Shown: positions 6,104 through 50,015 of the stretch, in pieces
Layout of the letters: the number at the start of each line of letters is the position of its first letter
Numbering within the stretch: position 1 is the stretch's first letter
Source of the DNA: a virus
Lineage: Duplodnaviria > Caudoviricetes
IMG/VR virus record: IMGVR_UViG_3300021978_000001
Location: 224,001 to 288,000 of that record
Strand: one strand, 5' to 3'
DNA: 64,000 bases
Made by a program: the position numbers and the translations under genes
The notes under the pieces: model-generated
What the model saw: the letters and a program-made list of their open reading frames with translations, nothing else
Databases searched by the model: none
What the model was told of the DNA's origin: nothing

Positions 6104-6516
6104 CAGAAATCCGAAGGTGTATCCACCCCGAGGAGCGTCGCGATCTGCCCCGCCTGGTTACGCACCTGGAGGTCGTCCCAACGGTCCGCGTTGTGGAGAA
6201 GGTTGTTGAGTTTGTTCACCGCCATCTCTTCGTTGCGCGTCAAGAGCGAACCTACAGCTCCCGCGATAGAACGCAGCATCTTGTAGGTCGCAGGGCTCGA
6301 AGAGCGGAACTTGCGTGCCAGGTTACCGAGCGCGCGCATATCGACCAGATCATCCGCATAGGACGCCGTGCGCTGCTCGGGCGCGTTATCCTGGATGGTG
6401 TCCAGGGGAGAGAGCGCGTTGACCTCACCATGCTTTTCGATCACAGGGAGCAGCACCCCCCGCAATTCAGGGTTCGCGTGCGCGAGGCGAATAAGATCAT
6501 CACGAAGCGTAGACAT
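6103..6516 (-). CDS. Hypothetical protein with N-terminal LIRLA..PELR tag
   Basis: Start moved to ATG 6516 (MSTLRDDLIRLAHANPELRGVLLPVI); 137 aa. Confidence 0.7.
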   Translation of the reverse strand: MSTLRDDLIRLAHANPELRGVLLPVIEKHGEVNALSPLDTIQDNAPEQRTASYADDLVDMRALGNLARKFRSSSPATYKMLRSIAGAVGSLLTRNEEMAVNKLNNLLHNADRWDDLQVRNQAGQIATLLGVDTPSDF

Positions 6517-6590
6517 GGGAAGCTCGGAAAGGTGGTTATAGAAGTGGCCAAAGGTTCCATTGTGCATGAGGTATAAAACCATCACCAAGC

Positions 6591-6620
6591 AAAAAAGGGC
6601 CACCCGAAGGCAGCCCTTTT
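6591..6620 (-). terminator. Rho-independent terminator
   Basis: Stem AAAAGGGC/GCCCTTTT (6593-6600/6613-6620) with U-tract on the minus strand, after stop at 6636. Confidence 0.75.
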
Positions 6621-6635
6621 ACGAACCCAGAAGCG

Positions 6636-6932
6636 TTACCGCATACGGTCGATCAAGCGCTTGAGCTTGCGCATCTCGTGGTTGAGGTCCGCATACGCCG
6701 TATCGAGGCGACGCAAGCCCATGTAGTAAGGCTTCTCGTCTTCCGCCTCGGACACCATACGATAGGCTTGGTACATATCGTCTGCAATGCTCTTGAAGAC
6801 GCTGGGCATTTCACCGAGGTCATCGACAGGCGTACCCGCCTGACGGTCAAGGTGTGCGATCACAGGCTTGAGGTCTTTGCGAAGCTCGGGGTTCGCGTTC
6901 CCGAGACGAATGAGCTGCGTTTTCAGATCCAT
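6636..6932 (-). CDS. Hypothetical protein with N-terminal LIRLG..PELR tag
   Basis: 98 aa, RBS AAGGAG; starts MDLKTQLIRLGNANPELRKDLKPVIAHLDRQA. Confidence 0.8.
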   Translation of the reverse strand: MDLKTQLIRLGNANPELRKDLKPVIAHLDRQAGTPVDDLGEMPSVFKSIADDMYQAYRMVSEAEDEKPYYMGLRRLDTAYADLNHEMRKLKRLIDRMR

Positions 6933-6956
6933 GAGGGTCTCCTTTCCTTGTGAGTC

Positions 6957-7000
6957 AAAAAAGAACCCCCTGCTGCCCAGGGCTGCAAGGGGTTCTCTTT
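6957..7000 (-). terminator. Rho-independent terminator after the major capsid gene
   Basis: GAACCCC/GGGGTTC stem (6963-6969/6989-6995) plus A-run 6957-6962 (U-tract on minus). Confidence 0.8.
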
Positions 7001-7024
7001 AAGCCATAGCGCTCTGATCAGTGA

Positions 7025-7903
7025 TCAGCGACGCACCACCAGGCGGACGAGACCGCGAGGGTTGTGGCAGCCGATACCGAGGTTCTCGAAGATCGAGAAG
7101 CCGATGCGGCGCTGTGCAGGGTTGTCTGCCGAGAGGACGGTCAGCTCCGTGCGGACAGGGATGCGACCGAACAGCTCGGGCTCCGTGCAGATGTACACGA
7201 ACCCAGCAGGAACCAGGCGCGACACGATGATCTGGGCACCCCAGAGGGTAGCCTGGAGACCCGTGTTCAGAAGCGTAGCCTGCGACTCGATGTCGAGGAT
7301 CTCGCGACCGAACTTGCGGATGTCGCTGTAGTCCTTGGCGTTCATGTAGATACGCGCGACGCGGAGGTCGTGCTTCTCCACCTCTGCAAACGCGTCTGCG
7401 AGGACGGCCTGCGAGATAGGAGCGATCACCTGGAGGTCAGGGTTGACCGAGCCAGGGATCGAGTCGAAGCCCGTGGTCGCCACAGCGTCGAGGATCGAGA
7501 AGACACGCTCGTCTTCTGCGGCCTGGATCTGGGACTTGCCGAGCTGTTGAGCACGCTCGATGAGGTCGAAGCGACGCTCCTTGATCTGCGTGATCGGGAT
7601 GGTGGGAAGCGAAGCGATCTCGAACAAGGGGATGATCACGCGGCGTGGCTTCTGCACGGCCTGGATGGATTCACCCTCTTCCCCGATGACGTATGCGGTC
7701 ACGTCGGGGTCCTTGTCGTAGATAGGCAATGCGCCATCAGGGAGCTGCTCCACGAGGAAGGTCTTGCGACCCACCGAAGAGTAATCCCTGCGCGAACGCA
7801 AAGGCTGGATCATGGACGCTGCCAGACGCGCGCGTCCTGCGGCGGTCTTGATGAAGCGACCGATGAGCTGCTGCTTGGCAGCGATGTCGAGTGCATTGGA
7901 CAT
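7025..7903 (-). CDS. Major capsid protein (HK97 fold)
   Basis: Start moved to ATG 7903 (MSNALDIAAK) behind RBS AAGGAG; 292 aa; HK97-like pattern (E-loop 'AYVIGEEG', 'IYMNAKDYSDIR', 'LWGAQIIVSRLVPAG', C-terminal 'IGCHNPRGLVRL'); order protease-scaffold-decoration-MCP followed by a terminator. Confidence 0.85.
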   Translation of the reverse strand: MSNALDIAAKQQLIGRFIKTAAGRARLAASMIQPLRSRRDYSSVGRKTFLVEQLPDGALPIYDKDPDVTAYVIGEEGESIQAVQKPRRVIIPLFEIASLPTIPITQIKERRFDLIERAQQLGKSQIQAAEDERVFSILDAVATTGFDSIPGSVNPDLQVIAPISQAVLADAFAEVEKHDLRVARIYMNAKDYSDIRKFGREILDIESQATLLNTGLQATLWGAQIIVSRLVPAGFVYICTEPELFGRIPVRTELTVLSADNPAQRRIGFSIFENLGIGCHNPRGLVRLVVRR

Positions 7904-7961
7904 ATCGAAGTCTCCTTCTTGTGAGCTGTTCAGAGGTGAGCTTGAACCGAGCGCGTCTGGG

Positions 7962-8630: not shown

Positions 8631-8720
8631 GATTTTCTCCTATCGAGAAGTGGTAGTGGTCGTTTGCACTTGCGTTATATTTGTGAAGGCGGTCGCATCA
8701 GCTCACGCCCAAGAGAGAGT

Positions 8721-10145: not shown

Positions 10146-10268
10146 GTTGATCCTCCAGAGCGGTAGGGGTCTTCGGTGCTTGCAAGTCCGGTCACTTACC
10201 CCTGCCATACAGGGGAGCGTCAAAGACGGTGCCTATAAGCGTAAAACCGGCGAAAATCCCTATTTTTT

Positions 10269-10303
10269 AAAAGACCCCTCGATACAAGGCTTGTATGAGG
10301 GGT
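10269..10303 (-). terminator. Terminator-like hairpin after the protease gene
   Basis: ACCCCTC-G-ATACAAG-G-CTTGTAT-GAGGGGT (10274-10303) followed by CTTTT on the minus strand. Confidence 0.65.
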
Positions 10304-10325
10304 TGGCGAGTAAGAAAAAACTCAT

Positions 10326-11843
10326 TCAGTTGAGCAGCGTGGCCGCATGTAGTGCTTGTTCGGCTTCTGCACGGGTCGGTACACGCCCCAGAGACGCCAT
10401 CAATGCCTTGAGGTAGGTCTTGGTATCCGCGTGACGCTTGAATGCCCCAGCGTGGACGAGAGCCTTATAGAACGAAGCCTCACGTACCTTACGGTTGGGG
10501 TTTTCACGATCTGCCATATACAAGGCGGTCACAATCTCGGAGTTCGCGAAGCGAGGACGCAAAGTCTCGTAACGCTCGGGTGACCCCATCGTGTAAAGAA
10601 GTGCGAACAAGCGACGGCGCGTGTCGATGTCAGGGACGTCCTGTGCATAACGGCGCGTGAAGAGTGCATAGGCCGCGTGCACATCCATCGAAGAATGATG
10701 GATGCTATCATTGGGCGCCATCTCCGCGCCGGGCATGTCCTTCTTGGGCTTCTCATCGCGAAGCTCCTTGCGAAGCTCGCGCATGGCCTTGTCCTTGACC
10801 TTGGTCTTGAACTGGTCCACGGCGTCTTCGAGAGGGGACTTCTCCTCTTCGGTATCCTCTTCCTCATCATCGAAGTCGAACGCCAACTTGAGCTGCATGT
10901 TGATCTGATCCATGGCAGCCTGTGCTGCATGCGCCGCCGTCTTGCGGAACATGTCCGTCCAATCCGGGATCACCTGCGATTGCATGGTGTATGCATGTTC
11001 GATGCGTTGAGAGAGATCAGCGCTATCGTAACGACCAGGGACGTGCGTCGTGGGGCCACCTTCGAGGATGTTACGCATCACCGCTCCCTTGAACGCGGGA
11101 TTGCCCACCCAGGATGCCTCGATAAAGACCACAGACTCGGGGTCCGTGTGGTGTCCACACAGCTCCGCGACCACGCGAATGGCGCCATCGGGACCGATGA
11201 ACTTGTTGCCCTTCTCATAGCGGACGTGACGGCACAACTCGACGTCATCCTTGGCGACGTTGCCGCACTTGGTGCACACGCTGTAAGCAATGGTGCAGCC
11301 CATCGACAAGGTGTTCAACTCACCCGACTCGATGCGCGCGATCAGATCACGATGCTTGCGGTCTGTTGCCACGAGGATGTCAACATAGACGGTATCCCCG
11401 AGGTCTCGGGCCACCGCGTCGATGATCTTCCCCTTGGACAGCTCGGGCACCTGGATATGCTCGACGTAATTCTCTGCACCTACGAAGGTGTTGTACGTCG
11501 CCATCAAGAGCTTGCGCTCCCAGGCATCCCCGTTCTGGTTGATGTAACGCGAGCACTCAGGCTTGATCAGGTAGTCGGCATGGGGGCGGTTGATCTCCTC
11601 CCCATCTGCGTTCTTGACCTTCGAGCCTGTCTTGACGTTGGGGGCATCATCCACATCGACCGATGCAATGATCGTGCAGTGGGTCAAGAGATAATCATCA
11701 GGGCTGTACTGGGACAACATCGTATTCGCGACACGACTCCCATGCGCGCCCGCCTTGAGCGCGGCAGCACGGGACATGTTCCACTGATCGAGACCGACCA
11801 TCGGATGTTGAACAACAGCATTTGCAGTACGGATCATGGCCAT
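10326..11843 (-). CDS. Prohead (capsid maturation) protease with Cys-rich insertion
   Basis: 'NQNGD', 'NYVEH' (His), 'TLSMGC' (catalytic Ser), 'CTKCGN...LCRH', 'EASWVGNPAFKGA'; typical HK97/assemblin-like protease motifs; position upstream of scaffold and MCP. Confidence 0.8.
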   Translation of the reverse strand: MAMIRTANAVVQHPMVGLDQWNMSRAAALKAGAHGSRVANTMLSQYSPDDYLLTHCTIIASVDVDDAPNVKTGSKVKNADGEEINRPHADYLIKPECSRYINQNGDAWERKLLMATYNTFVGAENYVEHIQVPELSKGKIIDAVARDLGDTVYVDILVATDRKHRDLIARIESGELNTLSMGCTIAYSVCTKCGNVAKDDVELCRHVRYEKGNKFIGPDGAIRVVAELCGHHTDPESVVFIEASWVGNPAFKGAVMRNILEGGPTTHVPGRYDSADLSQRIEHAYTMQSQVIPDWTDMFRKTAAHAAQAAMDQINMQLKLAFDFDDEEEDTEEEKSPLEDAVDQFKTKVKDKAMRELRKELRDEKPKKDMPGAEMAPNDSIHHSSMDVHAAYALFTRRYAQDVPDIDTRRRLFALLYTMGSPERYETLRPRFANSEIVTALYMADRENPNRKVREASFYKALVHAGAFKRHADTKTYLKALMASLGRVPTRAEAEQALHAATLLN

Positions 11844-11848
11844 GGGGG

Positions 11849-12133
11849 TTACTCCTCGTTGTGCCTCTGCATGAGCAAAGGCATCAAATCCGAACGCAAC
11901 TCCGGGCGATCGAGCGCCAACTCGACCAGCTCCGCATACAAAGCGCGCTCTTCTTGATCAGTGATCTGGGGAACTCGACTCAAAGTATTCAACAACTGCA
12001 ACCCAGGCGCCTGAAGATCCTGCGAAGATGCGGTGCGTACCGTACCGAAATACAAGCGCGCGGCCTGACGAAAGGATTCATCTCGTGAAGCGCGCGCAGT
12101 AAAAGCACGCTTGATGTCCGCAGGGATTTTCAT
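11849..12133 (-). CDS. Hypothetical protein with C-terminal copy of the PELR tag
   Basis: Start moved to ATG 12133 (ATGA overlap with upstream stop); ends LYAELVELALDRPELRSDLMPLL. Confidence 0.65.
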   Translation of the reverse strand: MKIPADIKRAFTARASRDESFRQAARLYFGTVRTASSQDLQAPGLQLLNTLSRVPQITDQEERALYAELVELALDRPELRSDLMPLLMQRHNEE

Positions 12134-12543
12134 TTCAAATGATCCGAGAGCTTCTGGTCGATCGCAGCAAACAAATCCTCCAAGGACTCGTGTTGCCCGG
12201 TCTCCCACTTGTGGAACTGCGCATCCTGGAAGCTCGTACCCACGTGCAACATGGTCTCGATGTCGTAGCCATCACCCTTGTGCACGATGTCGAACTTGAG
12301 ACGCCATTGTACCTGTGTGATCTGACCCTCCAGATAACCAGGCTCGCGCTTGGTGATAGAAGTGTCGTAGTCACACGCGGTCGCGTAAGCGTCGGTCAAC
12401 TCCTTGAGGAAGTGGTTTCGCACGAAGTCGAAAATCGCCACATCAAGCGTGGACAACCCCGCGCGTTTGAGCACCGGACCCAACGCCTCACGCAACGTAG
12501 GCCGCGCGAGAGCGAGGCCGATGAGTTGGTGGTGCAAAGGCAT
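12130..12543 (-). CDS. Hypothetical protein with divergent N-terminal tag
   Basis: 137 aa, RBS AAGGAG; starts MPLHHQLIGLALARPTLREALGPVL. Confidence 0.75.
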   Translation of the reverse strand: MPLHHQLIGLALARPTLREALGPVLKRAGLSTLDVAIFDFVRNHFLKELTDAYATACDYDTSITKREPGYLEGQITQVQWRLKFDIVHKGDGYDIETMLHVGTSFQDAQFHKWETGQHESLEDLFAAIDQKLSDHLK

Positions 12544-12552
12544 TCGTACTCC

Positions 12553-12948
12553 TTAGAAGCGGACGGGACCCTTCACCTTGAAGCGCTTCGCAAGAAGCGA
12601 AACCATGTCGGGCAACATATCAGGTTGGAAATTCCGCAAAGGCGCCATCACCACGAGATTCTTATCGAGGGCCTCGACCAACACCCCACCCGCGTCCGCC
12701 GCGACACCGAGCGAACGCATATGCTTCGCGATGTCCTCGGTCATCTTGGCAGTCTCCCTGGCCGTATGCTCGACCACAGCGAGCGACGCACCAGAGACGA
12801 GACTGCGCCCGATGTACACACCGTGATAAGCGGTGTACAACGTGTAGGTTGCCGCTTGCTTATCAAGGTGTGCGATCACAGGCTTGAGATCTTGACGAAG
12901 CTCGGGCTTTGCGTTACCGAGTCGAATGAGTTGCGCTTTCAAATCCAT
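12553..12948 (-). CDS. Hypothetical protein with N-terminal LIRLG..PELR tag
   Basis: Start moved to ATG 12948 behind RBS AGGAG; MDLKAQLIRLGNAKPELRQDLKPVIAHLDKQA. Confidence 0.75.
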   Translation of the reverse strand: MDLKAQLIRLGNAKPELRQDLKPVIAHLDKQAATYTLYTAYHGVYIGRSLVSGASLAVVEHTARETAKMTEDIAKHMRSLGVAADAGGVLVEALDKNLVVMAPLRNFQPDMLPDMVSLLAKRFKVKGPVRF

Positions 12949-14306: not shown

Positions 14307-16331
14307 TCATGTGATCCGGCGAAGAATACCGAGGAGGCGTTCGTAAGTCGGAGCATCAATCATGCCTGCATACTTGTACTGCGACGCCGTGTGGATCGCA
14401 TAATCGAGAGCCAGACACAGAAGCATATCTTCCTGTGCACCTTCCATCTCACGCACATAAGCAAGGCGAGAATCCGTCAACCAGAGCTTCGCTTCGCTCA
14501 AGATGAGCTGGTAGTCTTCCAACTCCAGGCACATCGACCCCAGGGGCAATCGCCACTCGGGCGCGGGCGGGCTCTCCTTGCGGGGGAGGGGACCCGGGAG
14601 TCCTCGGTACTGCGCGGTGCGTGCACGATGCGTCGCGCTCGCACGGTATGCACGAGTCATCCCATGCGCGAAACTCTTTGCGAGCACATGAGCTTTCTTC
14701 TCATTATCCATCAGGGCCTCCAGGAGTTGGGCCATCCAGGCGCCAAAGCCATCACGAGACACATTCTCGGGGGTCTTGGTCGCGCGCTGTTCTTGCTGAC
14801 GCCTCATGATAAACGCCTTGACCTGAATCGGATCGAAGGTTCGAGCACGTCCAGGCTCATCAGGCGTCATACGCAACTGCTCGAAGTAGCCTTGCGTCAA
14901 GAAATCATCGGTCAAGTAATCGAAGAGGCGTTGACGAAAAGCCTGACTCAACACAGCTCCGTCACTCGGAGTGTCCGCATCGTAATCCAACGCCATGCGG
15001 TAGTCCGGGTTATCCTTTACCAAGTCCACAAGCTCTTTATCGGAGAGCTTGCGCATGTTATCCACGAATCCCTTGACGGCATCCGGGTCAGTAAAGTCTA
15101 CCTTGCTGGGATCAAGACCCTCCTTACCCGCGTCCTCCATGGTCTTGAGGAGCTGACCATAGCCTGTGGTAGCATCAAAGCTCTTCTTGGCCAGGACTTC
15201 ACCCATCATACCGCGCAACTCGGTGTAATACTTGTGCGCGCTCGACCCCTCCTCTTGCTTTTCGATCACTTCATCGAGGTCTTCGATGGCCTTGGCCACG
15301 TCCGCCTTCGAGGAGAACAAGGCAGACTGGTAGAGCTTGGGTGAATCGAAATTGAGCTGACGCACCATCGCGGTATCATCGAGCTTGTTGAGTGCTGTCT
15401 TCGAGGGCATCAGCTTCGTGATGCTCACGTTCTCATCCGAGAGCGAAGGCAAGTTACGAAGCTCACCACGCGCCTCTTCGTACACTTTCTGGATCTCTTC
15501 GTAGTACGCCGCCTTGTTCCGATCGTTCTCGCGCACCGCTTGCGCCATGCGCTCAGACACATCCGCCAGGCCAGCATCATGGTCATACACGTCCCAGTTC
15601 TTGGCATGAGTCTCCAACTTCTGGCGCGTCTCTGCGGAGAGTTCACCCTCGAAGTCTTCGGGCATCTCCTGGACACCTTCAGGGTACGGCTGCTTTTGTT
15701 CGAGCATCACCTGGCGGGCCGCTTGCGAGTCGATCGAATCAGGGTTATCCGAGACAGCCTTGTCATACAGATCATCGTAGGTTGCCCCTGAATCACGATA
15801 CTTCTGCGCTCGCGCGTCCACCTTCTCTTCCGGTGTCATGTCTTCGGGGGCCTTGGGCTCCTCTGGAGCGACAGACTGCCCAAGCTCCTCCATAAGCGAC
15901 CTCTCGGTCTCGGAAAGCTCTTCGACAGGCTCATCGGCCTCTGGTCGAATCTGAAGCTGCTTTTCGTGCGGCTCCTCTTCCTCGACCTCCTCTTCAGGTG
16001 ACGCCTCCTCTTCCGTCGAGGTCTCGTCTTGCTCCTGAATCGTGTGATCCTTACGGTCCGCCCCCGGGTGCTTTTCCTTGTAGGCTTCCCACGCCTCTTC
16101 GGTCGCAAACTCCATGGCCATCAAGTACAAGCGCGCGACCCTCCCCCCGATGTCCTTGTAGTTCAGGGAGAGGTCCTTGTCCTTGGTGTCTGTGTCTCGA
16201 TCCTTCTGCTCGACACGACCACGCTCCTTATCACGGCGCGGGGGTTTCTTGGTCGGGCTCTTACGCACCAAGCGCTGTGCCTCTTCTTCCTCGCGCTCTG
16301 CATCTGACTTTGTAGCGTCACGTTTCATCAT
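14307..16331 (-). CDS. Large hypothetical protein between portal and protease (candidate inner-head protein)
   Basis: 674 aa; basic/acidic N-terminus, RVARLYL motif, Glu-rich linker; overlaps the portal stop. Confidence 0.75.
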   Translation of the reverse strand: MMKRDATKSDAEREEEEAQRLVRKSPTKKPPRRDKERGRVEQKDRDTDTKDKDLSLNYKDIGGRVARLYLMAMEFATEEAWEAYKEKHPGADRKDHTIQEQDETSTEEEASPEEEVEEEEPHEKQLQIRPEADEPVEELSETERSLMEELGQSVAPEEPKAPEDMTPEEKVDARAQKYRDSGATYDDLYDKAVSDNPDSIDSQAARQVMLEQKQPYPEGVQEMPEDFEGELSAETRQKLETHAKNWDVYDHDAGLADVSERMAQAVRENDRNKAAYYEEIQKVYEEARGELRNLPSLSDENVSITKLMPSKTALNKLDDTAMVRQLNFDSPKLYQSALFSSKADVAKAIEDLDEVIEKQEEGSSAHKYYTELRGMMGEVLAKKSFDATTGYGQLLKTMEDAGKEGLDPSKVDFTDPDAVKGFVDNMRKLSDKELVDLVKDNPDYRMALDYDADTPSDGAVLSQAFRQRLFDYLTDDFLTQGYFEQLRMTPDEPGRARTFDPIQVKAFIMRRQQEQRATKTPENVSRDGFGAWMAQLLEALMDNEKKAHVLAKSFAHGMTRAYRASATHRARTAQYRGLPGPLPRKESPPAPEWRLPLGSMCLELEDYQLILSEAKLWLTDSRLAYVREMEGAQEDMLLCLALDYAIHTASQYKYAGMIDAPTYERLLGILRRIT

Positions 16332-18246
16332 CGGTGTCCATAGCAGTTTGCATCATCTGAGCCACGCGTTGACTCAGATCAGGATTTGCGGCGAGCGCTC
16401 CCGCGATATAGGAAGCCATGTGTGCCTCATCAGAAGGCGGCATGGCAGCCCCCTTCCTACGAGTCGAACCGAAGCGCGAATTGGTATCCTTGGGCGGCTT
16501 GTAAGACAGCTCCAGGTAGTCCGCCACGCGCTCCAGCATATCCGACTGCTCGGGCAGGGAACGTCCAAGCTCCGAATACGAACTCCTCAAAATCTCGTTG
16601 AACAACGAATCGTTCATGGTCAAGAAATCCTGACGCAAGCGCTCCTCGACCGCCTGGGGGTCGAGGTTGAACAGCTCCAGGATATATCCAACCGCGAGGC
16701 TTCCCTTCTGGTAGAGGTTGAACATCGCATCGAACGTGTCACGGTTATCGCGCAAGGCGAGACGCGTGAAGCTCAACTCGGGGTACAACACCACCTCATT
16801 GCCAAACTCATCATACTCTACGAAGCCCTTCTTGATCGCCACGGGGCGGAACAGGTTCTCTTCGACGTACTGCTGCATGCGTTCGCGATACAACATATAC
16901 CTCGTGTTGATCACCTCGATATTGATGCGCTCTCCTGAGTAGCTCGACTCACCCGTGAGCATGGACTCGGTGACACCCAGACCCGCGAAGAGCTGGCGAT
17001 CGGTGATGTCATACTCGGAGTTCAGGTCGAGCAGGCGATCACGCGCAGAGATCTCCTCCCAGGTCACCTGGAAGTTTGTGATCAGCGAGTAATCAGGGTC
17101 GAGCAACATCAAGTCCACCTGCTCGCGCAGCTCCTCGACGTCTGCGAGGCTCATGTCCTCTGCATAAATCAAGCGCTTGGGAGTCATGGCGCGCGATGCA
17201 ATCGACGTCTGCGCCTGACGCAGCTTGTCGCGATACACGAGCACGCGCATCACAGACTGCAAGATCGAGATGCCGTGATCTTTCCCCGGCTCCTTGTTTC
17301 GCGGGAGGTGATACACGAACGAACCCTCGTCCGGGTCTGTCCCGAGAGGAAGGTTCTCTCCCTGCGCGATGTAGTGGATGATTTCCTCGGGGACATCAGC
17401 CAGCGCTTCGATGGCGTTGGGGTCCTCCATAATAGCAGCCTGGACCAGAGCCTTGGTGCGCTCGTCCGGGACCAGCTCGACCTTGTAAGCTCTGGAGTAA
17501 GAATAAGTCTCCAGCCTTACCTGGTCGGGGGGCAGCAAGATCACACGATCCCACCCCTTGTAGTGCTGCTGCTTGTATGCTCGAATACGATCATCCGCAT
17601 CATCGACACGTTGACGAATGATGCTTGTTTCCCCCGAGGCGGTATCGAGATGATTGACGTCCTCCGTATAGACGTACTCGGGAACATCGACCTCGGAATC
17701 CTCCGCAAACAGGAAGGCTTCCCCGACCACATAGAACTCACGCGTGGCATCCACCAGGAGATTCAAGAGGTCGATACGCTTGACCATATCCTCGTAGAAT
17801 TTCAAGATTTGGCGGTTGCGCTTGGGGTCCTTCCCCTTGGGCATCGTCAAACGGAGCTTCGATAGTGGCAGCTCGGTGTGCAAGATCACCGCTTGCTGCA
17901 CATAAGGGTCGTTATTGTAGAAGAAACGGTAGTACGACCGCATCTCCGCCAGGTTTTGAGGCAGCTCCAGGAAATCAGTGGAGAGCTGTGGCGAATAGAT
18001 GTTGGTCGCGCTTCCCAGGGAGACGTTAGCCGAACCCATCCCGAGACCGCCCCCCATACCCCCACCAAAGCCATAACCGTAAGCGCCGGAGCCTCCTACA
18101 TAGTTGCTGACCTTGTTGGCGCGCGATGCGATGCGTGAGCTAGGCCGTACCTCTGCTTGACCCGAAGCAGACATCATGCGTCTTACCTGAGAGACAGAGG
18201 ACACCGTGATCGCATCCGCGTTTTGCTTGTTCAATTTCGAGGGCAT
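16318..18246 (-). CDS. Portal protein
   Basis: 642 aa; 'DPYVQQAVILHTELPLSK', 'FYVVGEAFLF', 'GISILQSVMRVL...KLRQAQ', 'QLFAGLGVTESMLTG'; directly downstream of terminase. Confidence 0.8.
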   Translation of the reverse strand: MPSKLNKQNADAITVSSVSQVRRMMSASGQAEVRPSSRIASRANKVSNYVGGSGAYGYGFGGGMGGGLGMGSANVSLGSATNIYSPQLSTDFLELPQNLAEMRSYYRFFYNNDPYVQQAVILHTELPLSKLRLTMPKGKDPKRNRQILKFYEDMVKRIDLLNLLVDATREFYVVGEAFLFAEDSEVDVPEYVYTEDVNHLDTASGETSIIRQRVDDADDRIRAYKQQHYKGWDRVILLPPDQVRLETYSYSRAYKVELVPDERTKALVQAAIMEDPNAIEALADVPEEIIHYIAQGENLPLGTDPDEGSFVYHLPRNKEPGKDHGISILQSVMRVLVYRDKLRQAQTSIASRAMTPKRLIYAEDMSLADVEELREQVDLMLLDPDYSLITNFQVTWEEISARDRLLDLNSEYDITDRQLFAGLGVTESMLTGESSYSGERINIEVINTRYMLYRERMQQYVEENLFRPVAIKKGFVEYDEFGNEVVLYPELSFTRLALRDNRDTFDAMFNLYQKGSLAVGYILELFNLDPQAVEERLRQDFLTMNDSLFNEILRSSYSELGRSLPEQSDMLERVADYLELSYKPPKDTNSRFGSTRRKGAAMPPSDEAHMASYIAGALAANPDLSQRVAQMMQTAMDTDDET

Positions 18247-18643: not shown

Positions 18644-18861
18644 TTCTGATCTCTCTTCCAGGCAACATACGCCTTGCACGCTTTCTTGAGCGCGGTCCAG
18701 GCATCAGGGTCAGCATTCGCGAGCGCCTCCCACGAGCCTCCTGTGTTCTCATAGAGCGCCGCGACAGCATCGAGAACAGGCACAGGGCGTTCAGTCACGC
18801 CCATTTTGCGCAACGCTTCATCCACGCAAAGGTGAGCGAAGCGGTCATAACGCTCTGCCAT
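18640..18861 (-). CDS. Hypothetical protein
   Basis: Probable start ATG 18861 overlapping the terminase stop; 73 aa. Confidence 0.6.
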   Translation of the reverse strand: MAERYDRFAHLCVDEALRKMGVTERPVPVLDAVAALYENTGGSWEALANADPDAWTALKKACKAYVAWKRDQK

Positions 18862-20861
18862 CACCATCTCCTCTTGTGCATACGCTGAATCGCACGAAGT
18901 CGTGCGCCGCGTTGAAGCTGTGTGTTGTTACGGCGCCCCTTACGGCGGTGGTACTCGGTCGCAGAACGAGGGACATTATGGTAAGAGGCTTCACCCTGAG
19001 CGTTGTAGTTGGCACCCTTGGCGATATGCGTTTGACGCCCGGACGCCATTACGGAAAGCCATACCGAGCGAATCAACGCATCCGCAAAGTCATCGTGCTT
19101 CCCAACAACATTGGGCGCCGCGACTTCGACCACCTTCTTGGACTTGTAGCTCGCTTGCAGCTCCAACAACTCCTCGATGTAGGGCGCAGACTTGACCACA
19201 CCCGTGCCTTCGAGGTTGGAGAGGTCGATGTTCGAGTCCATGTCATCATCCCCCGCCCCAGTGTCACGCAAGGTGAAATCGTAGAGGCGCAGCTTGTTGT
19301 GGTACATCAGCGTCTTGAACGCGTCGTACATGCGGCTGGTCTCGTCCTTGGTGAATTGCTTGGACTGGATCTGGTCGAGCCCCATCTTGTCAAGTGTCTG
19401 CTGGAAACTCAACGCGTGCCACTGATCGAACAGACCTTCCTTGATGAAGAATTTGCGCGAGACCGCGCGTACCCAGTTGGCCAATTCATCAAAGTCGAGC
19501 ATCTCGACACCAGGCATCTCCTTGACGTAGGGGACCAGGGGCGCGGAGAGGTGCGGGTTCAACTCATACCAATCTGCCCCTGCCTGCCACTGCTCGTGGT
19601 ACACGAGGCGGATGTGCTCCCCTTCAGGGCGCGTCAAAACCAACGCCGTGCGGTCATTGACCACCGCGAGGTCGAGCCCCATGTAATGCGCTTGCCTCGC
19701 CTGACCACGAACCTCGGGCTTGAGATCGACATCGACACAAGCCATCAGGTCCTTGCGACGCTCGATCCAACCACTGGCGCGGTCCGTGAACTGCGCTCCA
19801 AATTCGGTATCGAACACGCGTGGGTTCGACGCCTGGAAGTTCCGCAAGAAGTTGACGGGGACTGTGGGGTTAACCTCCCAGGTAGGCGCCTGGATCATGA
19901 GCAAGTCTTCCGAATCCTCCCCGCCACGCTTGGACTGCTGATACTGGTTAAAGAACAGCCCCTCCTTGGCGAACGGCGAGGAGATCAGGATGATGCGACC
20001 CTCGGAGTTCTGAGAGAGCATCTCCCCGGGATTGTTCGGGTCCGCAGGGTTGAAGGTCGCCACAGAAGGCGTCACAGCATCATAAACGTTCTGTGCCGAG
20101 CTTCCGCCCTTGCTCTTGAAGAACGCGACCTCATCGAGAATCACGACGATGTTCGCGAAACCACGAATACCCGAGCTAGACGAGGAGAAGAATCGAATCT
20201 GATAGCTGGCGCGACCATCCTCACGTGCAGAACCCGTCGTATCCAGATCGTGCGGCGTCTGGAACTTCATGTACGTCTGCGTATCATGTGACAGATAAGG
20301 GTCAAAGAACGCACACGTCACGAAGTAGTTGCGGATCGCGTTGTACAAGATCTGCGACTGATCCTTGGTCGGAGCCACAGTAGAAAGCGTGATCTCCGCA
20401 CCTTCAGCCATGCCATAGTAATTCTGAGGATCACCCTTACGCAAGAGCTTGTAGCTCTCGAACGCCCCGATAATCGAAGACACGAAGGACTTCCCAGAAC
20501 GACGACCAATCGGCAGCACGAGCGTTCGACGCATGTGATCTTGAGACTTGAGGTTGCACCGCCCCTGATCGTGCAAGTAAGCCATGTACTCCAACTCGGT
20601 GAAGTTGTAGTAATGCTCGGGCTTTGCACTCTGCGCGTATTGCCACAGCCTGGGGATTTTGATGTTGCGTTCGGTGTTATCCAGTTCGATATGGTAAAAG
20701 GACTTGAGGATAAAGCGCTGCACAGGGTACAGTTGAACACGCTGATCAGGACCCATGTTCAAGCCATAGGGCGAGTCCACGAAATCCATGATCGACATGG
20801 CTTCCGTTTCATTATCGCGGCTCCTACGACCGATGCGACCGAAGAGATCTGAGAGTGACAT
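18861..20861 (-). CDS. Terminase large subunit
   Basis: Walker A 'IGRRSGKS', Walker B 'VVILDEVAFF', motif III 'ISSP', RNase H nuclease 'MGLDLA..NDRTA' and 'HDDFADAL'. Confidence 0.92.
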   Translation of the reverse strand: MSLSDLFGRIGRRSRDNETEAMSIMDFVDSPYGLNMGPDQRVQLYPVQRFILKSFYHIELDNTERNIKIPRLWQYAQSAKPEHYYNFTELEYMAYLHDQGRCNLKSQDHMRRTLVLPIGRRSGKSFVSSIIGAFESYKLLRKGDPQNYYGMAEGAEITLSTVAPTKDQSQILYNAIRNYFVTCAFFDPYLSHDTQTYMKFQTPHDLDTTGSAREDGRASYQIRFFSSSSSGIRGFANIVVILDEVAFFKSKGGSSAQNVYDAVTPSVATFNPADPNNPGEMLSQNSEGRIILISSPFAKEGLFFNQYQQSKRGGEDSEDLLMIQAPTWEVNPTVPVNFLRNFQASNPRVFDTEFGAQFTDRASGWIERRKDLMACVDVDLKPEVRGQARQAHYMGLDLAVVNDRTALVLTRPEGEHIRLVYHEQWQAGADWYELNPHLSAPLVPYVKEMPGVEMLDFDELANWVRAVSRKFFIKEGLFDQWHALSFQQTLDKMGLDQIQSKQFTKDETSRMYDAFKTLMYHNKLRLYDFTLRDTGAGDDDMDSNIDLSNLEGTGVVKSAPYIEELLELQASYKSKKVVEVAAPNVVGKHDDFADALIRSVWLSVMASGRQTHIAKGANYNAQGEASYHNVPRSATEYHRRKGRRNNTQLQRGARLRAIQRMHKRRW

Positions 20862-21459: not shown

Positions 21460-22146
21460 TTAGCGCAACTGTGCAGCAACACGCTTGAGCATGGCCGCCT
21501 CATTCGGCATATCCAATGCCGAGAAGAGTACCCCCATGGCAAACGTGATCAGGTACGCCTGTTGGCGCATCTTCTTGGGATCTTGGGACATCACGGCGTC
21601 GATAAACTTCGAGCCTCCCGCGCGGAGCTGACCCGCGAGCTGACGAATCTGACCGAAGGCATCTGCGGTAAGCTCCAACGAGCCATAGACAGACAAATCA
21701 GGGCTGACCATTTTGGTCGTATCCAGATGAAGCGTTACCTCCATCTCGCCCCCACGACCCGGCGTGATCTTCAACCTACGGACAGGCACACCTCGTCGAT
21801 CGAGAAGCCTCATCAATGTCTTCTCATCTTGCCGAGCACGGTCCAAATCCTCGATGAACTGAAGCTCTGGGTCCATGGCCACATTCACCCGGTACGTCGC
21901 TCGAATCACATCAGGACCATGCAAGTACGCATCGACATGACGACCGTTGTAATCGCTCATCCTCTTCAACTCACGGCGTACCATCTCAAGGTAGTTCTCG
22001 CGAGTAGACGCTTGACGGTTAGCACTAGGCGAAGAACCCTCCATCGTCGCGGTGACCATGGCGATCACAGGCTTGAGATTTTCCCGAAGCTCGGGGTTCG
22101 CGTTCCCGAGGCGGATGAGTTGGTTTTGTAGCTTCATCAGGTCCAT
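21460..22146 (-). CDS. Hypothetical protein with N-terminal LIRLG..PELR tag
   Basis: 228 aa; MDLMKLQNQLIRLGNANPELRENLKPVIA...RQAS. Confidence 0.75.
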   Translation of the reverse strand: MDLMKLQNQLIRLGNANPELRENLKPVIAMVTATMEGSSPSANRQASTRENYLEMVRRELKRMSDYNGRHVDAYLHGPDVIRATYRVNVAMDPELQFIEDLDRARQDEKTLMRLLDRRGVPVRRLKITPGRGGEMEVTLHLDTTKMVSPDLSVYGSLELTADAFGQIRQLAGQLRAGGSKFIDAVMSQDPKKMRQQAYLITFAMGVLFSALDMPNEAAMLKRVAAQLR

Positions 22147-25113: not shown

Positions 25114-25702
25114 GGCCACCCCTCCTGTTGACGTTGAGCGTCGCCTTCTTGACGACCTCTTCCTTGTACTCACGCTCGACGAACGCATCAGGGTTCAAGC
25201 TGATCTCATCAGATTCTTCGAGCATCTGCTCGGCTTCTGCTTCCTCGGAAGCGGGGATAGCTAGAGCGGTAGCGTCCCAGTGCGCGGCACGAAGTTCATC
25301 ATAAAGTGTGTCCTGGAGCGCGCTCAGGGTCTCGACGGAATCCGTCATCGACTTGCGCATCCCCTTGATCGTCTGAATAAACCCTGCGCCTCCCAGCTTC
25401 CCATCAGGGGAAATGGAGACTGCCTTGATCTTGGAGAAGGTCGAGTGCGCGCTGATCAAGTGACCGAGCGCGACAGAGACCGACCACAGAACCTTCGCGA
25501 GTGGCTTCTTGGCTTTGGGGTTGTACTCATAGGCGTCGGGCAGAACGCGACCTTCCGGTCCCTGGTCCTTGATGAAACGAATTTCACCAGCGGTCCTGGT
25601 CATGGTATAACCCGAAGCCTCCAGATGGCGACGCGCGACCTCAGACGCCAGACGAAGCGTGCGCTCAGGCGTCATCGCATTTGCGGTGTGCTTTCGGGTC
25701 AT
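25106..25702 (-). CDS. Hypothetical protein (EVARRHL motif)
   Basis: 198 aa ORF in tight operon. Confidence 0.75.
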   Translation of the reverse strand: MTRKHTANAMTPERTLRLASEVARRHLEASGYTMTRTAGEIRFIKDQGPEGRVLPDAYEYNPKAKKPLAKVLWSVSVALGHLISAHSTFSKIKAVSISPDGKLGGAGFIQTIKGMRKSMTDSVETLSALQDTLYDELRAAHWDATALAIPASEEAEAEQMLEESDEISLNPDAFVEREYKEEVVKKATLNVNRRGGHG

Positions 25703-34605: not shown

Positions 34606-34608
34606 GCC

Positions 34609-43234: not shown

Positions 43235-43254
43235 AGAGGCAACGCATCAACGCA

Positions 43255-47940: not shown

Positions 47941-47943
47941 GCG

Positions 47944-48708
47944 TTACTCCTGTTCTTCGTATTCGTTTTCTTCGTGTTCATCAGCACCCCAAGCCAACAA
48001 GACTCGCGCAAACTTCCCGAGTCTTGTTGTCGTCGCGCGGTCATTAAAGCTGGCGACCAATCCCTCGACCTCATATAAGGTCAAGCCATGAAGCTGATCC
48101 CTGTAGGCACACCAGACTTCCTCGACCATGGGAGGAGATAGAGGCCCACCGAAAGCAGGGACACCCAGGCCCGCAGACTTCAACCACCACAGCATCTCAT
48201 AGCGACTATCCGCCTCGAAGCTGCTTTGTTGCGCCACAAAGATAAGGTCTCGACAGGAGGCAGCCGATGCGCGCTCTTCGAGGAGCAACAGACGTCTGGC
48301 CGCTTCCAATGCAGTCTCACCCGGCCTCATGTGCTTCCAAAACGTGTGCTTCGAGAGCTGCACGCTACCTTCTACCGTGCCCGTAAACATCTCCGCGACT
48401 GTCTCCAGCTCCCGAACCACGCCGCGCACCAACACTGCGTTCGGTAACACATCATGATAAGCGGCCTCACTGGAGGGCTTACGATCTTCCTGGTCTACCC
48501 ACCTGATCTGGAGCTGCGCTCTCTTGAGCGAACCTTCCTCATAGGTTAGACACAGGAGAAGACCCCTCGGGGCTTCCTCCCAACACAAGGGAGATGTGTA
48601 TTCAGGTAGACGGTATCCATGTCCTTCGAGGGTCTTCACCGCCTGGTCTGCCCAAGATAAAAAACCCTCGGGAGATAAGGCCCGAGGGTTTCCAGTGTGA
48701 ATGCTCAT
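47944..48708 (-). CDS. Hypothetical protein
   Basis: Start moved to ATG 48708 (MSIHTG) behind RBS AAGGAGAG. Confidence 0.7.
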   Translation of the reverse strand: MSIHTGNPRALSPEGFLSWADQAVKTLEGHGYRLPEYTSPLCWEEAPRGLLLCLTYEEGSLKRAQLQIRWVDQEDRKPSSEAAYHDVLPNAVLVRGVVRELETVAEMFTGTVEGSVQLSKHTFWKHMRPGETALEAARRLLLLEERASAASCRDLIFVAQQSSFEADSRYEMLWWLKSAGLGVPAFGGPLSPPMVEEVWCAYRDQLHGLTLYEVEGLVASFNDRATTTRLGKFARVLLAWGADEHEENEYEEQE

Positions 48709-48740
48709 GTTTCTCTCCTTTGGGTAACCCAGGAGAGTGT

Positions 48741-48769
48741 AATATACTGGAACGAAGACGTCCAGTAAA
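48741..48769 (-). promoter_or_regulatory. Sigma70-like promoter
   Basis: TTTACT (48769-48764), 17-bp spacer, TATATT (48746-48741). Confidence 0.6.
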
Positions 48770-48770
48770 A

Positions 48771-50015
48771 TCAACGCCTGTAATCAGGATCACGAGCCAG
48801 TTCGAGCACGCGAGACAGCATCTTCTGAAGCTCGCGAGCCTCCGTGCGGAGCTTACGCACCGCAACATCGAAAGAGATACGCATATCCTCGAAATCGCTG
48901 TACACCGCCTGAATAGCGAGCATCGCACGAAGGAAATCACGACGCACCGAAGAGACGAGTTCATCTGACCGGCTCAAGCGGCCAAAGATCTTGTCAAGCG
49001 CTCCCATGGCTTCATCGACATACCCCGCCTGGATACGCGAGTACAAGCCTTCCGAGTCCTGCACGAAGTCATTGATAAAGCCCGTCGTGTCTTCCACAAG
49101 GTCCTTGAGGACACGTTGGTAGGTCGCACTGTTGGCGACGCGAGAAACCATGTTACGCTTGAAGTTGACGACACCCTCAATCCATCCGTAATCCCCACCA
49201 TCGACGAAGATGCTCTTGATGTACTTGGCGTAGGGGCGCAACGCATGCTTGATCTCTTCCCGAAGACCCGCATAAGGATCTTCGTAATCGTCATACCCGC
49301 CGAAGTCATCGTCCTCGAAGTCATCATCCCAGTTATCATCATTGTCAGGACGACTCTCGTGACTCTCTTGACGGAAATCGAAGATCACGTTCCCATCCTC
49401 ACGGTTGATCTGCACCGTGTTGTCGCGGCTATACTCACGACCTCGGGAGATCTTGCGCAAGATCGCCTCGACCTCTGCGTAAACATCCACAGTAAGCTCG
49501 GGCTTTGGCGCGGGCTTTGGAGTAGGGGTAGGCTTCGGGGTAGGCTTCGGCGCAGGTTTTGGCGCGGGCTTGCTCGGGCGTTGCGCCGGATGCGTAAAGT
49601 CATACTCGGCATGAAGCGTCTGAGAGACAGTCTCCCATACTGTCGAGAGATTCCTGAGCTTGACCTTGATCGGGCGTTGACGCCCGGGAGTCATGTACAA
49701 CTCCCAGCCACGATCGAGATGCCCTGCGATGCTCAAGGACATCATCACGCGGTTCCCATCCCCATCCTTGGTCACCAGGTTGCCCATCCATTCGAGCGGC
49801 ATACCCGGCTCATCCATAAAGCCCGTGCGCGTGACCTGCACGCGATGCGGCAACAAGCGATTGAGCCACTTCTCGATGTCTGTCATGGCTGCATCAAGAC
49901 GTTCCATGTCACGCGACATACGCACCGCCATCTTGCGCAGCACTCGACCGAGATGAGGTCGAAGCTCCGGTGTGACGTTACCGAGACGAATGAGTTGCTG
50001 TTTAAGGTCTGTCAT
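48771..50015 (-). CDS. Multidomain hypothetical protein with N-terminal LIRLG..PELR tag and Pro/Lys linker
   Basis: 414 aa; MTDLKQQLIRLGNVTPELRPHLGRVLRKMA; 'KPAPKPAPKPTPKPTPTPKPAPKP'. Confidence 0.8.
   Translation of the reverse strand: MTDLKQQLIRLGNVTPELRPHLGRVLRKMAVRMSRDMERLDAAMTDIEKWLNRLLPHRVQVTRTGFMDEPGMPLEWMGNLVTKDGDGNRVMMSLSIAGHLDRGWELYMTPGRQRPIKVKLRNLSTVWETVSQTLHAEYDFTHPAQRPSKPAPKPAPKPTPKPTPTPKPAPKPELTVDVYAEVEAILRKISRGREYSRDNTVQINREDGNVIFDFRQESHESRPDNDDNWDDDFEDDDFGGYDDYEDPYAGLREEIKHALRPYAKYIKSIFVDGGDYGWIEGVVNFKRNMVSRVANSATYQRVLKDLVEDTTGFINDFVQDSEGLYSRIQAGYVDEAMGALDKIFGRLSRSDELVSSVRRDFLRAMLAIQAVYSDFEDMRISFDVAVRKLRTEARELQKMLSRVLELARDPDYRR

What the first reader, a model, noticed from the sequence alone, without database searches (positions are those of the whole stretch)
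6427..50015. Candidate capsid cargo-targeting system: one ~25-aa tag grafted onto seven unrelated proteins
Seen: MDLKTQLIRLGNANPELRKDLKPVIAHLDRQA (start 6932), MDLKAQLIRLGNAKPELRQDLKPVIAHLDKQA (12948), MDLMKLQNQLIRLGNANPELRENLKPVIA...RQAS (22146), MTDLKQQLIRLGNVTPELRPHLGRVLRKMA (50015), MSTLRDDLIRLAHANPELRGVLLPVI...RTAS (6516), MPLHHQLIGLALARPTLREALGPVLKRA (12543), and a C-terminal copy LYAELVELALDRPELRSDLMPLL (11941-11873). Copies at 6848-6932, 12863-12948 and 22060-22146 are also similar at DNA level (e.g. shared GCGATCACAGGCTTGAG). Sequences after the tag are unrelated, and the tag is usually followed by a [KR]-x-A site. Six carriers sit in the head module. Established analogues: the T4 capsid-targeting sequence on IPI/IPII/IPIII removed by gp21, phiKZ gp175 propeptides, and encapsulin cargo-loading peptides. 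Inference: a portable helix-Pro-helix address label that loads diverse effector or ejection proteins into the prohead and is then cleaved; duplication of the leader exon-like unit would let the phage recruit new cargo. I do not recall a description of this motif, but could not search.
Basis: partly seen in the sequence, partly recalled or inferred. Interest (0 to 1): 0.9.

Follow-up and report, generated by a model that had tools for sequence, protein, structure and literature searches.

The report
Portable helix-Pro-helix tag of huge phages
A 437-kb phage attaches one conserved ~27-residue helix-proline-helix peptide to at least 16 otherwise unrelated proteins, most of them encoded among its head-assembly genes; the same undescribed peptide occurs in thousands of huge-phage proteins and is most likely an address label that loads cargo into the capsid.

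Summary
All seven copies are present. The whole 437,490-bp phage genome has 17 copies on 16 ORFs: 13 N-terminal, the rest C-terminal or internal. With the tag masked, the carrier bodies show no similarity to each other, and synonymous differences show selection on the peptide. The motif (LRxxLIRLA/GxxNPELRxxLLPLL) has no Pfam, PHROG, PDB or literature match. It matches 2,172 metagenomic protein clusters, often 2-5 copies per protein. It is essentially confined to phage contigs and at chance level in 185,579 cellular genomes.

Support for capsid loading is circumstantial but converges:
- Six window carriers lie inside the terminase-portal-protease-scaffold-MCP cluster.
- A [KR]-x-A-[S/G/A] site flanks the tags. 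The same site is about 17-fold enriched in the acidic scaffold-like protein and recurs in its orthologues across the clade, so it is probably the prohead-protease site.
- AlphaFold gives helix-kink-helix, a floppy linker, then the body.
- Tagged bodies elsewhere include a Dps-fold protein, ADP-ribosyltransferases of the polyvalent type, GNAT and pentapeptide proteins, which resemble known packaged or injected phage proteins.

There is no proteomic or binding evidence, and an MCP-tag co-fold gave no answer. Close relatives with about 80%-identical MCP lack the tag. Verdict: a genuine, undescribed, phage-specific portable module. Capsid targeting is the best reading at about 50%.

The parts
6430..6513 (-). 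Tag copy, N-terminus of the 137-aa carrier (gene 6103-6516). A QRTAS site lies 22 residues after the tag. The gene's stop overlaps the start of the Dps-like gene (TGATG).
6849..6932 (-). Tag copy, N-terminus of the 98-aa carrier (gene 6636-6932), the first gene after the MCP. DRQA-G lies at the tag-linker boundary.
   Evidence: AF2 model: helices 3-13 and 15-31, linker 32-43 at pLDDT about 63, body helices 44-62 and 66-97.
11864..11947 (-). Tag copy at the C-terminus of a 94-aa carrier (gene 11849-12133), directly upstream of the prohead protease gene. It has an internal VRTAS site.
12463..12543 (-). The most divergent tag copy, N-terminus of the 137-aa carrier (gene 12130-12543). Orthologues in four relatives keep the tag skeleton and the K-x-A-[G/T/S] junction.
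12865..12948 (-). Tag copy, N-terminus of the 131-aa carrier (gene 12553-12948), followed by DKQA-A.
22054..22137 (-). Tag copy, residues 4-31 of the 228-aa carrier (gene 21460-22146), upstream of the terminase genes. NRQAS lies 14 residues after the tag.
49929..50012 (-). Tag copy, N-terminus of the 414-aa carrier (gene 48771-50015), between the ribonucleotide reductase gene and a RecD/ExoV-like helicase gene, so outside the head module.
7025..7903 (-). Major capsid protein, HK97 family, 292 aa from Met at 7903.
   Evidence: phrog_2522 E 5e-51; homologues carry PF05065
8721..10145 (-). Acidic, repeat-bearing scaffold-like protein between protease and MCP, with six [KR]-x-A-S sites.
   Evidence: 6 sites observed against 0.36 expected, reached in 0 of 5000 shuffles.
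10326..11843 (-). Prohead (head maturation) protease, 505 aa.
   Evidence: phrog_18299 E 3.8e-13 and phrog_2774 E 1.7e-21
16318..18246 (-). Portal protein.
   Evidence: phrog_16240 E 1.4e-27
18861..20861 (-). Terminase large subunit.
   Evidence: phrog_2 E 2.2e-25
5657..6103 (-). Dps-like ferritin-fold protein (DUF5856/PF00210 family). It is untagged here but translationally coupled to the tagged gene at 6103-6516. Orthologues in two relatives carry tags.

Best explanation
The ~27-residue peptide (core LRxxLIRL[A/G]xxNPELRxxL[L/K]P[L/V][L/I]) is a phage-specific, portable, amphipathic helix-Pro-helix docking module that folds on binding. It marks proteins for co-assembly into the procapsid. 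It most likely binds the scaffold core or the inner capsid surface, as the C-terminal helix-turn-helix of P22 scaffolding protein or the T4 capsid-targeting sequence do. It is joined to its cargo by a flexible linker that often carries a [KR]-x-A-[S/G/A] site. That site is repeated in the acidic scaffold-like protein and is probably cut by the prohead protease. Maturation would therefore free the cargo inside the head, from where it could be ejected into the host with the DNA. Cargo includes Dps-like protein, ADP-ribosyltransferases, acetyltransferases, pentapeptide proteins and many orphans. Proteins with several tags separated by charged linkers would act as multivalent scaffold-like or polyprotein cargo. 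Shown here: the module, its selection, its portability, its phage restriction, its flanking motif and its head-module enrichment in this genome. Inferred: binding to the procapsid, cleavage and ejection.
For: (1) There are 17 copies on 16 ORFs in the genome. Fourteen lie in the 30-kb block that also holds TerL, portal, protease, scaffold-like protein and MCP. (2) Bodies are unrelated: best E 0.5 within the genome, and 118 carriers from more than 40 phage contigs fall into 98 BLAST components, 85 of them singletons. (3) Selection acts on the peptide. Only 10 of 24 identical-residue codons are the same between two copies that are 86% identical in amino acids. (4) Portability is shown on one orthologous body. 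The Dps-fold protein is untagged in this genome, in four relatives and in 118 database homologues. It carries a degenerate N-terminal tag in one relative (12.7 bits, E 5e-6) and two clear tags in another. The fold is confirmed by AF2 and Foldseek, where all of the top 50 hits are Dps. (5) Predicted structure is helix-kink-helix, then a low-confidence linker, then the body, in both models. (6) For the flanking site, [KR]xA[SAG] lies just upstream of 61 of 173 internal tags (background 2.8%) and within 14 residues downstream of 127 of 330 tags (background 6.9%). The junction is conserved among orthologues. The scaffold-like protein has 6 [KR]xAS sites against 0.36 expected, and its orthologues have 1-8 sites, mostly 3-8, in most relatives examined. 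(7) Cargo types resemble known packaged or injected phage proteins: three N-tagged ART-PolyVal proteins above the Pfam cut-off, a GNAT protein with five tags, a pentapeptide protein, WGR, and weak LPD1 and RelA/SpoT hits. Phage polyvalent proteins with these domains are predicted to be capsid-packaged, and T4 Alt is packaged and injected (PMC5512222). (8) Phage restriction: 63 of 65 pattern hits in IMG/VR are true tags, against 1-2 of 40 chance-level hits in 596 Gb of cellular genomes.
Against: There is no virion proteomics, no cultured phage with the tag and no RNA data. The MCP-tag co-fold gave no answer. Complete or near-complete relatives with 77-81%-identical MCP and the same protease and scaffold-like genes have no tag at all, so the receptor is not obvious. 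In other phages tagged genes are scattered, and in one record all 15 tags lie more than 10 kb from the MCP. Nearly half of the copies are internal, which a simple propeptide model does not predict. Only about 35-38% of tags have the flanking site within the windows tested, and Ser or Ala before a helix could partly be a capping preference. The protease's specificity is inferred, not known.
Confidence: 0.5

Rival explanations
1. The tag is a general docking or oligomerisation module that assembles diverse phage proteins on a non-capsid hub or on each other, for example as tag-tag helical bundles or a cytoplasmic assembly or condensate. On this reading the head-module location in this genome is incidental.
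For: Multi-copy proteins with charged linkers look like multivalent network formers. Tagged genes are scattered in other phages. One window carrier sits in the replication block. No MCP binding was predicted. Tag-free relatives share the same head genes.
Against: Fourteen of 17 copies lie in the head block of this genome. In a distant lineage six tagged ORFs again neighbour the portal gene. The flanking motif is shared with the scaffold-like protein. Cargo types are typical of packaged effectors.
Confidence: 0.2
2. The conserved peptide is the product and not the address. On this view the multi-copy precursors are cut at the flanking [KR]-x-A-S sites to release free ~27-residue amphipathic peptides. 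These could be internal head peptides like T4 peptides II and VII, or peptides that act on the host.
For: Internal copies are preceded by K-x-A-S (K 42%, A 41%, S 42% at fixed positions) and followed by K-x-A. First copies start M-S-L-R and internal copies A-S-L-R, so cleavage would give the same N-terminus. Some proteins are little more than tags and linkers.
Against: In this genome and in 39 of 40 single-copy database proteins the tag is a single N-terminal unit on a 90-375-aa body. Bodies such as Dps and ART are clearly functional domains.
Confidence: 0.1
3. The carriers are a fast-evolving paralogue family that kept only its N-terminal domain. On this view the tag was never grafted.
For: Nine carriers in this genome have similar sizes (94-167 aa) and are clustered. 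Tag DNA of some copies is 77-88% identical.
Against: Tags occur on bodies with different known folds and families: Dps, ART-PolyVal, GNAT and pentapeptide. They occur at either end or internally. Orthologous Dps proteins exist with and without the tag.
Confidence: 0.07
4. The tag is a membrane- or lipid-binding amphipathic helix pair of the apolipoprotein type, interrupted by a proline, that sends proteins to a membrane.
For: The only PDB sequence resemblances are weak matches of the second helix to apolipoprotein A-I repeats and to a designed helical repeat. Both helices are amphipathic.
Against: Those matches are not significant per domain. No transmembrane or lipid-related genes are linked. 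The head-module context argues otherwise.
Confidence: 0.05

Closest known systems
T4 capsid-targeting sequence (CTS) on IPI/IPII/IPIII, and the packaged ADP-ribosyltransferase Alt, processed by prohead protease gp21
   Same: A short peptide on unrelated internal or injected proteins, a protease site at the junction, and ART cargo. Carrier genes may lie outside the head cluster.
   Different: The T4 CTS is about 10 residues, strictly N-terminal, and recognisable mainly by the L/I-x-E cleavage site. Here the module is about 27 residues and strongly conserved across many phage lineages. It also occurs C-terminally, internally and in multiple copies, and the putative site is [KR]-x-A-[S/G/A]. Packaging is proven for T4 and not shown here.
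C-terminal helix-turn-helix coat-binding domain of P22-type scaffolding proteins
   Same: A small amphipathic, slightly basic helix-turn-helix that binds the inside of an HK97-fold procapsid and can carry foreign cargo when fused. Multi-tag proteins with charged linkers resemble scaffolds.
   Different: In P22 the domain belongs to one dedicated scaffold protein and leaves intact without proteolysis. Here it sits on many different proteins, and there is no sequence similarity.
Encapsulin cargo-loading peptides and domains
   Same: A terminal peptide on diverse cargo. Cargo genes lie beside the HK97-fold shell gene. Ferritin-superfamily cargo occurs (here Dps-like). Multi-copy motifs in disordered regions occur, as in family 2 encapsulins.
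   Different: The shell here is a true phage capsid with portal, terminase and protease. The motif is unrelated in sequence and longer than family 1 peptides. It is not a member of the encapsulin systems.
phiKZ/SPN3US-type propeptides of head and ejection proteins (protease gp175/gp245, site S/A/G-x-E)
   Same: Giant phages with many packaged proteins that are trimmed by the prohead protease (PMC5694885, PMC10052503 listed).
   Different: To my knowledge those propeptides share only the cleavage motif and not a common sequence module. Both the MCP type and the site differ here.
Polyvalent proteins of phages (Iyer et al. 2017, PMC5512222)
   Same: Carriers include ART-PolyVal, GNAT, and weak LPD1 and RelA/SpoT matches. 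Some are large multidomain proteins near virion genes, predicted to be packaged and injected.
   Different: My term search of the paper returned no passage about such a short conserved peptide. Most carriers here are small single-domain orphans.

Membership tests
T4-type capsid-targeting sequence | Short N-terminal peptide shared by otherwise unrelated head-internal proteins | tested here: inconclusive
   Thirteen of 17 copies in this genome are N-terminal on unrelated bodies. Among the 155 database proteins analysed, 143 of 301 copies are internal and 29 are C-terminal.
T4-type capsid-targeting sequence | Removed by the prohead protease at a consensus site shared with scaffold and core proteins | tested here: inconclusive
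   [KR]xA[SAG] is enriched on both flanks of tags, and [KR]xAS is about 17-fold enriched in the scaffold-like protein. Cleavage itself was not observed.
T4-type capsid-targeting sequence | Carriers present in proheads or virions; tag sufficient to package a foreign protein | not testable with these tools
   No cultured tag-bearing phage exists in the phage collection, and there are no RNA or proteome data.
P22-type scaffold coat-binding helix-turn-helix | Small helix-turn-helix at a protein end | tested here: met
   AF2 gives helices 3-13 and 15-31 and 5-16 and 18-29, each followed by a low-confidence linker.
P22-type scaffold coat-binding helix-turn-helix | Binds the major capsid protein | tested here: inconclusive
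   The MCP-tag co-fold scored 0.00, 'no answer'.
Encapsulin cargo system | HK97-fold shell without portal, terminase or tail genes | tested here: not met
   Portal, TerL and prohead protease flank the MCP. The record is a 437-kb phage genome with terminal repeats.
Encapsulin cargo system | Targeting peptide on cargo encoded next to the shell gene; ferritin-like cargo common | tested here: met
   Two tagged genes and a Dps-like gene directly follow the MCP gene. The Dps-like protein carries tags in two relatives.
Pfam LRV/HEAT-type helical repeats | Match to the family profile | tested here: not met
   No Pfam family matched the tag in 118 carriers or in the window carriers at E 0.1. One database hit that carries LRV repeats has them beside the tag match, not on it.
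Phage polyvalent proteins | Several effector domains (ART, GNAT, LPD and others) in one polypeptide near virion genes | tested here: inconclusive
   A few carriers qualify: a 1780-aa GNAT protein with five tags, and a 723-aa protein (L020:15159-17327) with a weak LPD1 match. Most carriers are small with a single body.

The most novel reading that the evidence does not exclude
Huge phages possess a sequence-recognisable, transferable packaging code. Under this reading, one conserved helix-Pro-helix label, bounded by prohead-protease sites, is enough to load arbitrary proteins into the capsid for delivery to the host, including a Dps-type ferritin-fold protein, ADP-ribosyltransferases and whole polyproteins. 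This would be a natural phage counterpart of encapsulin cargo loading and a mechanistic bridge between phage capsids and encapsulins. It would also allow the injected-effector repertoire of uncultured huge phages to be read directly from sequence.
Probability: 0.35. Interest if true: 0.85.

Novelty: new variant of a known kind. Interest (0 to 1): 0.7.

Why it matters
Which proteins huge phages carry in their heads and inject is almost unknown, because nearly none are cultured. If this tag is a loading signal, an HMM search would list candidate packaged or injected proteins in hundreds of metagenomic phage genomes. It would give a defined peptide and site for engineering cargo-loaded capsids. 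It would also show a phage using the same cargo-tagging strategy as encapsulins, with ferritin-fold cargo. Even if the capsid reading is wrong, this is a large undescribed family of short, phage-restricted docking motifs (2,172 clusters at 50% identity). The recurrent flanking [KR]-x-A-S site is a testable candidate specificity for the prohead protease of this clade.

Tried and rejected
- Co-fold of the MCP (alignment A2) with the 34-residue tag (A1): score 0.00, 'no answer', which is evidence neither for nor against binding.
- PHROG and Pfam scans of the window carriers returned nothing meaningful.
- A PDB sequence search with the tag profile gave only weak helix-repeat and apolipoprotein-like resemblances. 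The same search with the protease found nothing.
- tblastn of the tag and of a multi-tag protein against 50,697 phage records hit only one uncultured 485-kb phage. No cultured phage matched.
- A literature search for five motif strings gave 0 papers.
- A genome-wide count of [KR]xAS sites using greedy ORF calls was too noisy, because spurious plus-strand ORFs displaced real genes. It showed only 99 sites against 74 expected, so I used per-protein tests instead.
- I tested whether tag-free relatives use another shared label. The N-terminal extension of their Dps-like protein ends in LKAAS or DRTAS, but it is not repeated elsewhere in those genomes.
- I tested whether the Dps-like gene co-occurs only with tags. 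It does not; it is present in all five relatives checked.
- An ESM Atlas search of the 414-aa carrier gave no usable hit.
- Upstream DNA of the tagged genes shares only a Shine-Dalgarno sequence, not a duplicated promoter cassette.
- Carrier bodies have mixed pI (4.9-9.8), so they are not uniformly basic like the T4 internal proteins.
Full report
**What the window is.** It covers bases 224,001-288,000 of a 437,490-bp IMG/VR virus record with direct terminal repeats, estimated complete. Near-identical DNA occurs in a hydrothermal-vent metagenome and partly in several marine and seawater studies. No RNA run holds it. Almost all genes are tightly packed on the minus strand. PHROG and Pfam scans identify a classical head block. 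In transcription order it reads:
- a 1007-aa protein (22165-25188)
- a tagged 228-aa protein (21460-22146)
- a 184-aa protein
- TerL (18861-20861)
- portal (16318-18246)
- proteins of 674, 161 and 253 aa
- two N-tagged proteins (12553-12948 and 12130-12543)
- a C-tagged 94-aa protein (11849-12133)
- prohead protease (10326-11843)
- a very acidic, repeat-bearing scaffold-like protein (8721-10145)
- a 222-aa protein
- HK97-family MCP (7025-7903)
- two N-tagged proteins (6636-6932 and 6103-6516)
- a Dps-like protein (5657-6103)

The seventh carrier (48771-50015) lies between the ribonucleotide reductase gene and a RecD/ExoV-like helicase gene.

**The observation.** All seven copies are present as described. 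An HMM built from them finds 17 domains in the six-frame translation of the whole genome, cleanly separated from noise. Thirteen are N-terminal copies between genome 216 and 246 kb, one is at 274 kb (window 50015), and one is the C-terminal copy. One ORF near 324 kb has a copy at each end, and ORFs near 219 kb and 383 kb each have an internal copy. With the tag masked, carrier bodies show no pairwise similarity (best E 0.5). The most similar copies are 75-89% identical in amino acids, yet they differ at many synonymous positions. For example, only 10 of 24 codons for identical residues are the same between two copies. The peptide itself is therefore under purifying selection, and the copies are not just recent duplicates. 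Upstream regions share only a ribosome-binding site.

**Distribution.** The tag profile matched 2,172 of 1.84 billion representative proteins at E <= 1e-3, and 102 at E <= 1e-10. Elsewhere the consensus is LRSxLIRLAHxNPELRxxLLPLL. I analysed the 155 proteins retrieved up to that point, which are the 150 best hits plus a few earlier ones:
- Forty carry one copy. In 39 of these the copy is N-terminal, on bodies of about 90-375 aa.
- One hundred and fifteen carry 2-5 copies.
- Of 301 copies, 129 are N-terminal, 143 internal and 29 C-terminal. They are often separated by K/E/D-rich linkers.

None of the ten sampled proteins has an informative name. No Pfam or PHROG family covers the motif in 118 carriers. 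No PDB chain matches it meaningfully, and no paper in the library contains the motif strings. A degenerate DNA pattern for I-R-L-A-H-x-N-P-x-L-R found 65 stretches in IMG/VR. Sixty-three are true tags, on contigs mostly 50-485 kb long and often several per contig. In 596 Gb of bacterial and archaeal genomes the pattern gave only 40 matches. That is the number expected by chance from its ~34 bits, and only 1-2 are true tags, one of them on a 1.3-kb contig in a MAG. The motif is thus essentially confined to large phages.

Within the MCP clade of this phage (595 IMG/VR loci, 73-87% identity) the tag distribution is as follows:
- It is present in the 7-member subclade around this genome.
- It is also present in several more distant lineages: L010, L020 and the contig of L074, and the record of L054, which has 15 copies.
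- It is absent from three large records of the biggest subclade, one of them complete.

In other phages the tagged genes are scattered over the genome. In an unrelated lineage, six tagged ORFs again neighbour the portal gene and a Dps-like gene.

**Modularity.** The clearest case is the Dps-like protein.
- Its fold is confirmed by a high-confidence AF2 model, for which the top 50 Foldseek hits are all Dps.
- It is untagged here, in four relatives and in 118 database homologues.
- In the closest large relative it has a degenerate N-terminal tag (12.7 bits, E 5e-6 for that single test).
- In another relative it is fused to two clear tags.
- In this genome its start codon overlaps the stop of a tagged gene.

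In both AF2 models the tag forms two helices kinked at the conserved proline. A 10-12-residue low-confidence linker follows, and then the body. Bodies of 118 carriers from more than 40 contigs fall into 98 similarity components. Recognisable domains among them are:
- three N-tagged ART-PolyVal ADP-ribosyltransferases (43-48 bits, cut-off 31.2)
- a pentapeptide-repeat protein
- WGR, DUF5710, DUF2958 and DUF7717 domains
- a GNAT protein with five tags
- weak LPD1, RelA/SpoT and bactofilin matches

They overlap the domain set of phage polyvalent proteins, which Iyer et al. predicted to be capsid-packaged. They also parallel T4 Alt, a packaged and injected ART (PMC5512222).

**The flanking site.**
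- Among orthologues of the 12130-12543 carrier the tag sequence drifts, but the K-x-A-[G/T/S] junction and the body are conserved.
- In the wider set, internal tags are preceded by K-x-A-S at fixed positions (K 42%, A 41%, S 42%).
- [KR]xA[SAG] lies directly upstream of 61 of 173 internal tags (background 2.8%) and within 14 residues downstream of 127 of 330 tags (background 6.9%).
- Independently, the acidic scaffold-like protein next to the protease has six [KR]xAS sites against 0.36 expected (0 of 5000 shuffles). Its orthologues have 1-8 such sites, mostly 3-8, in most relatives examined, whether or not they carry tags, with recurring forms such as PEKTAS, LPKTAS and VRTAS.
- The 1007-aa head-block protein has five such sites, the joint highest count in the noisy genome-wide tally.

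I infer that [KR]-x-A-S is the recognition site of this clade's prohead protease. This inference is untested.

**Most likely mechanism (about 50%).** The tag is a docking hairpin that folds on binding. It recruits its carrier into the assembling procapsid by binding the scaffold core or the inner capsid surface. The protease then cuts at the flanking sites, degrades the scaffold and frees the cargo, which stays in the head and may enter the host with the DNA. Multi-tag proteins would be multivalent scaffold-like cargo or polyproteins. The steps shown and the steps inferred are listed under the best explanation. Against this reading stand several points: direct evidence is lacking, the co-fold was uninformative, tag-free relatives have nearly the same head genes, tagged genes are scattered in other phages, and the flanking site is incompletely present. 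The rivals, a non-capsid docking or oligomerisation module, a released peptide product, a diverged paralogue family and a membrane-binding helix pair, are weighed separately.

**Comparison with known systems.** The tag would work like the T4 capsid-targeting sequence, the P22 scaffold helix-turn-helix and encapsulin cargo peptides, but it is a member of none of them. It is longer and far more conserved than the T4 CTS, and it is not restricted to the N-terminus. Unlike the P22 domain, it sits on many proteins. Its shell is a true phage capsid, not an encapsulin. I therefore class it as a new variant of a known kind of system, resting on an undescribed sequence family.

**Earlier notes of this scan.** Two first-stage notes on overlapping windows of the same genome made the same suggestion. 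I confirmed the copy positions they list with my own HMM search. They are not independent evidence.

Noticed in passing
window 2158-2574 (C-terminus), 2586-2960 and 2957-3541 (N-termini), 25106-25702; genome 213646-213945 and 407179-407850: A second short recurrent motif, about (K/R)(L/M)A-x-(R/K)-V-A-x-x-Y-L, sits at the N- or C-ends of several otherwise different proteins next to the head block. In relatives it is preceded by the same site, for example DKDAS-LAARVARRFL and SRTAS-QRIAARYL. It may be a second label of the same kind.
   Followed up: partly
L087:2161-2388:- and L089:1715-1915:+ (tag-free relatives): In tag-free relatives the Dps-like protein carries a different 65-75-residue N-terminal extension with a conserved proline- and tyrosine-rich block. 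It ends in LKAAS or DRTAS just before the Dps domain. The extension is not repeated elsewhere in those genomes.
   Followed up: yes
L010:4638-7442 and L020:4880-7612: In two relatives the prohead protease gene matches in two pieces separated by about 1-1.2 kb, which suggests an inserted element such as an intron, intein or homing endonuclease. In another lineage the portal gene is flanked by LAGLIDADG hits (L084).
   Followed up: no
window 22165-25188: A 1007-aa orphan protein at the start of the head block has five [KR]xAS sites, the joint highest count in the genome tally. It is a candidate large processed head or ejection protein.
   Followed up: no
window 6945-6990: A strong terminator-like GC hairpin with a T-run lies directly after the MCP gene and before the first tagged gene. 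A similar hairpin precedes the tagged gene near genome 216.8 kb.
   Followed up: no
scaffold-like orthologues in L004-L082 (about 7.4-9.3 kb of each locus): Scaffold-like proteins of tag-bearing lineages are far more acidic (D+E fraction 0.20-0.34) than most in the tag-free subclade (0.12-0.16, with exceptions at 0.20-0.24). This is a possible link to the slightly basic tag, but it is confounded by phylogeny.
   Followed up: partly
G006:C1:42514-42615 (record of L054): One tag-bearing reading frame in a relative contains an in-frame TAG. An earlier first-stage note on this genome mentions an amber-suppressor tRNA.
   Followed up: no
database proteins P0009, P0011, P0014, P0016, P0026: Multi-tag proteins share other short recurrent blocks between the tags. 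Examples are FEEGKPADPTKNMSPEDAEKW...DKYEDKFK, AGCEKLPEGGMRDNC and GEVPEAFKKQW. This suggests a wider vocabulary of short modules in these phage proteins.
   Followed up: no
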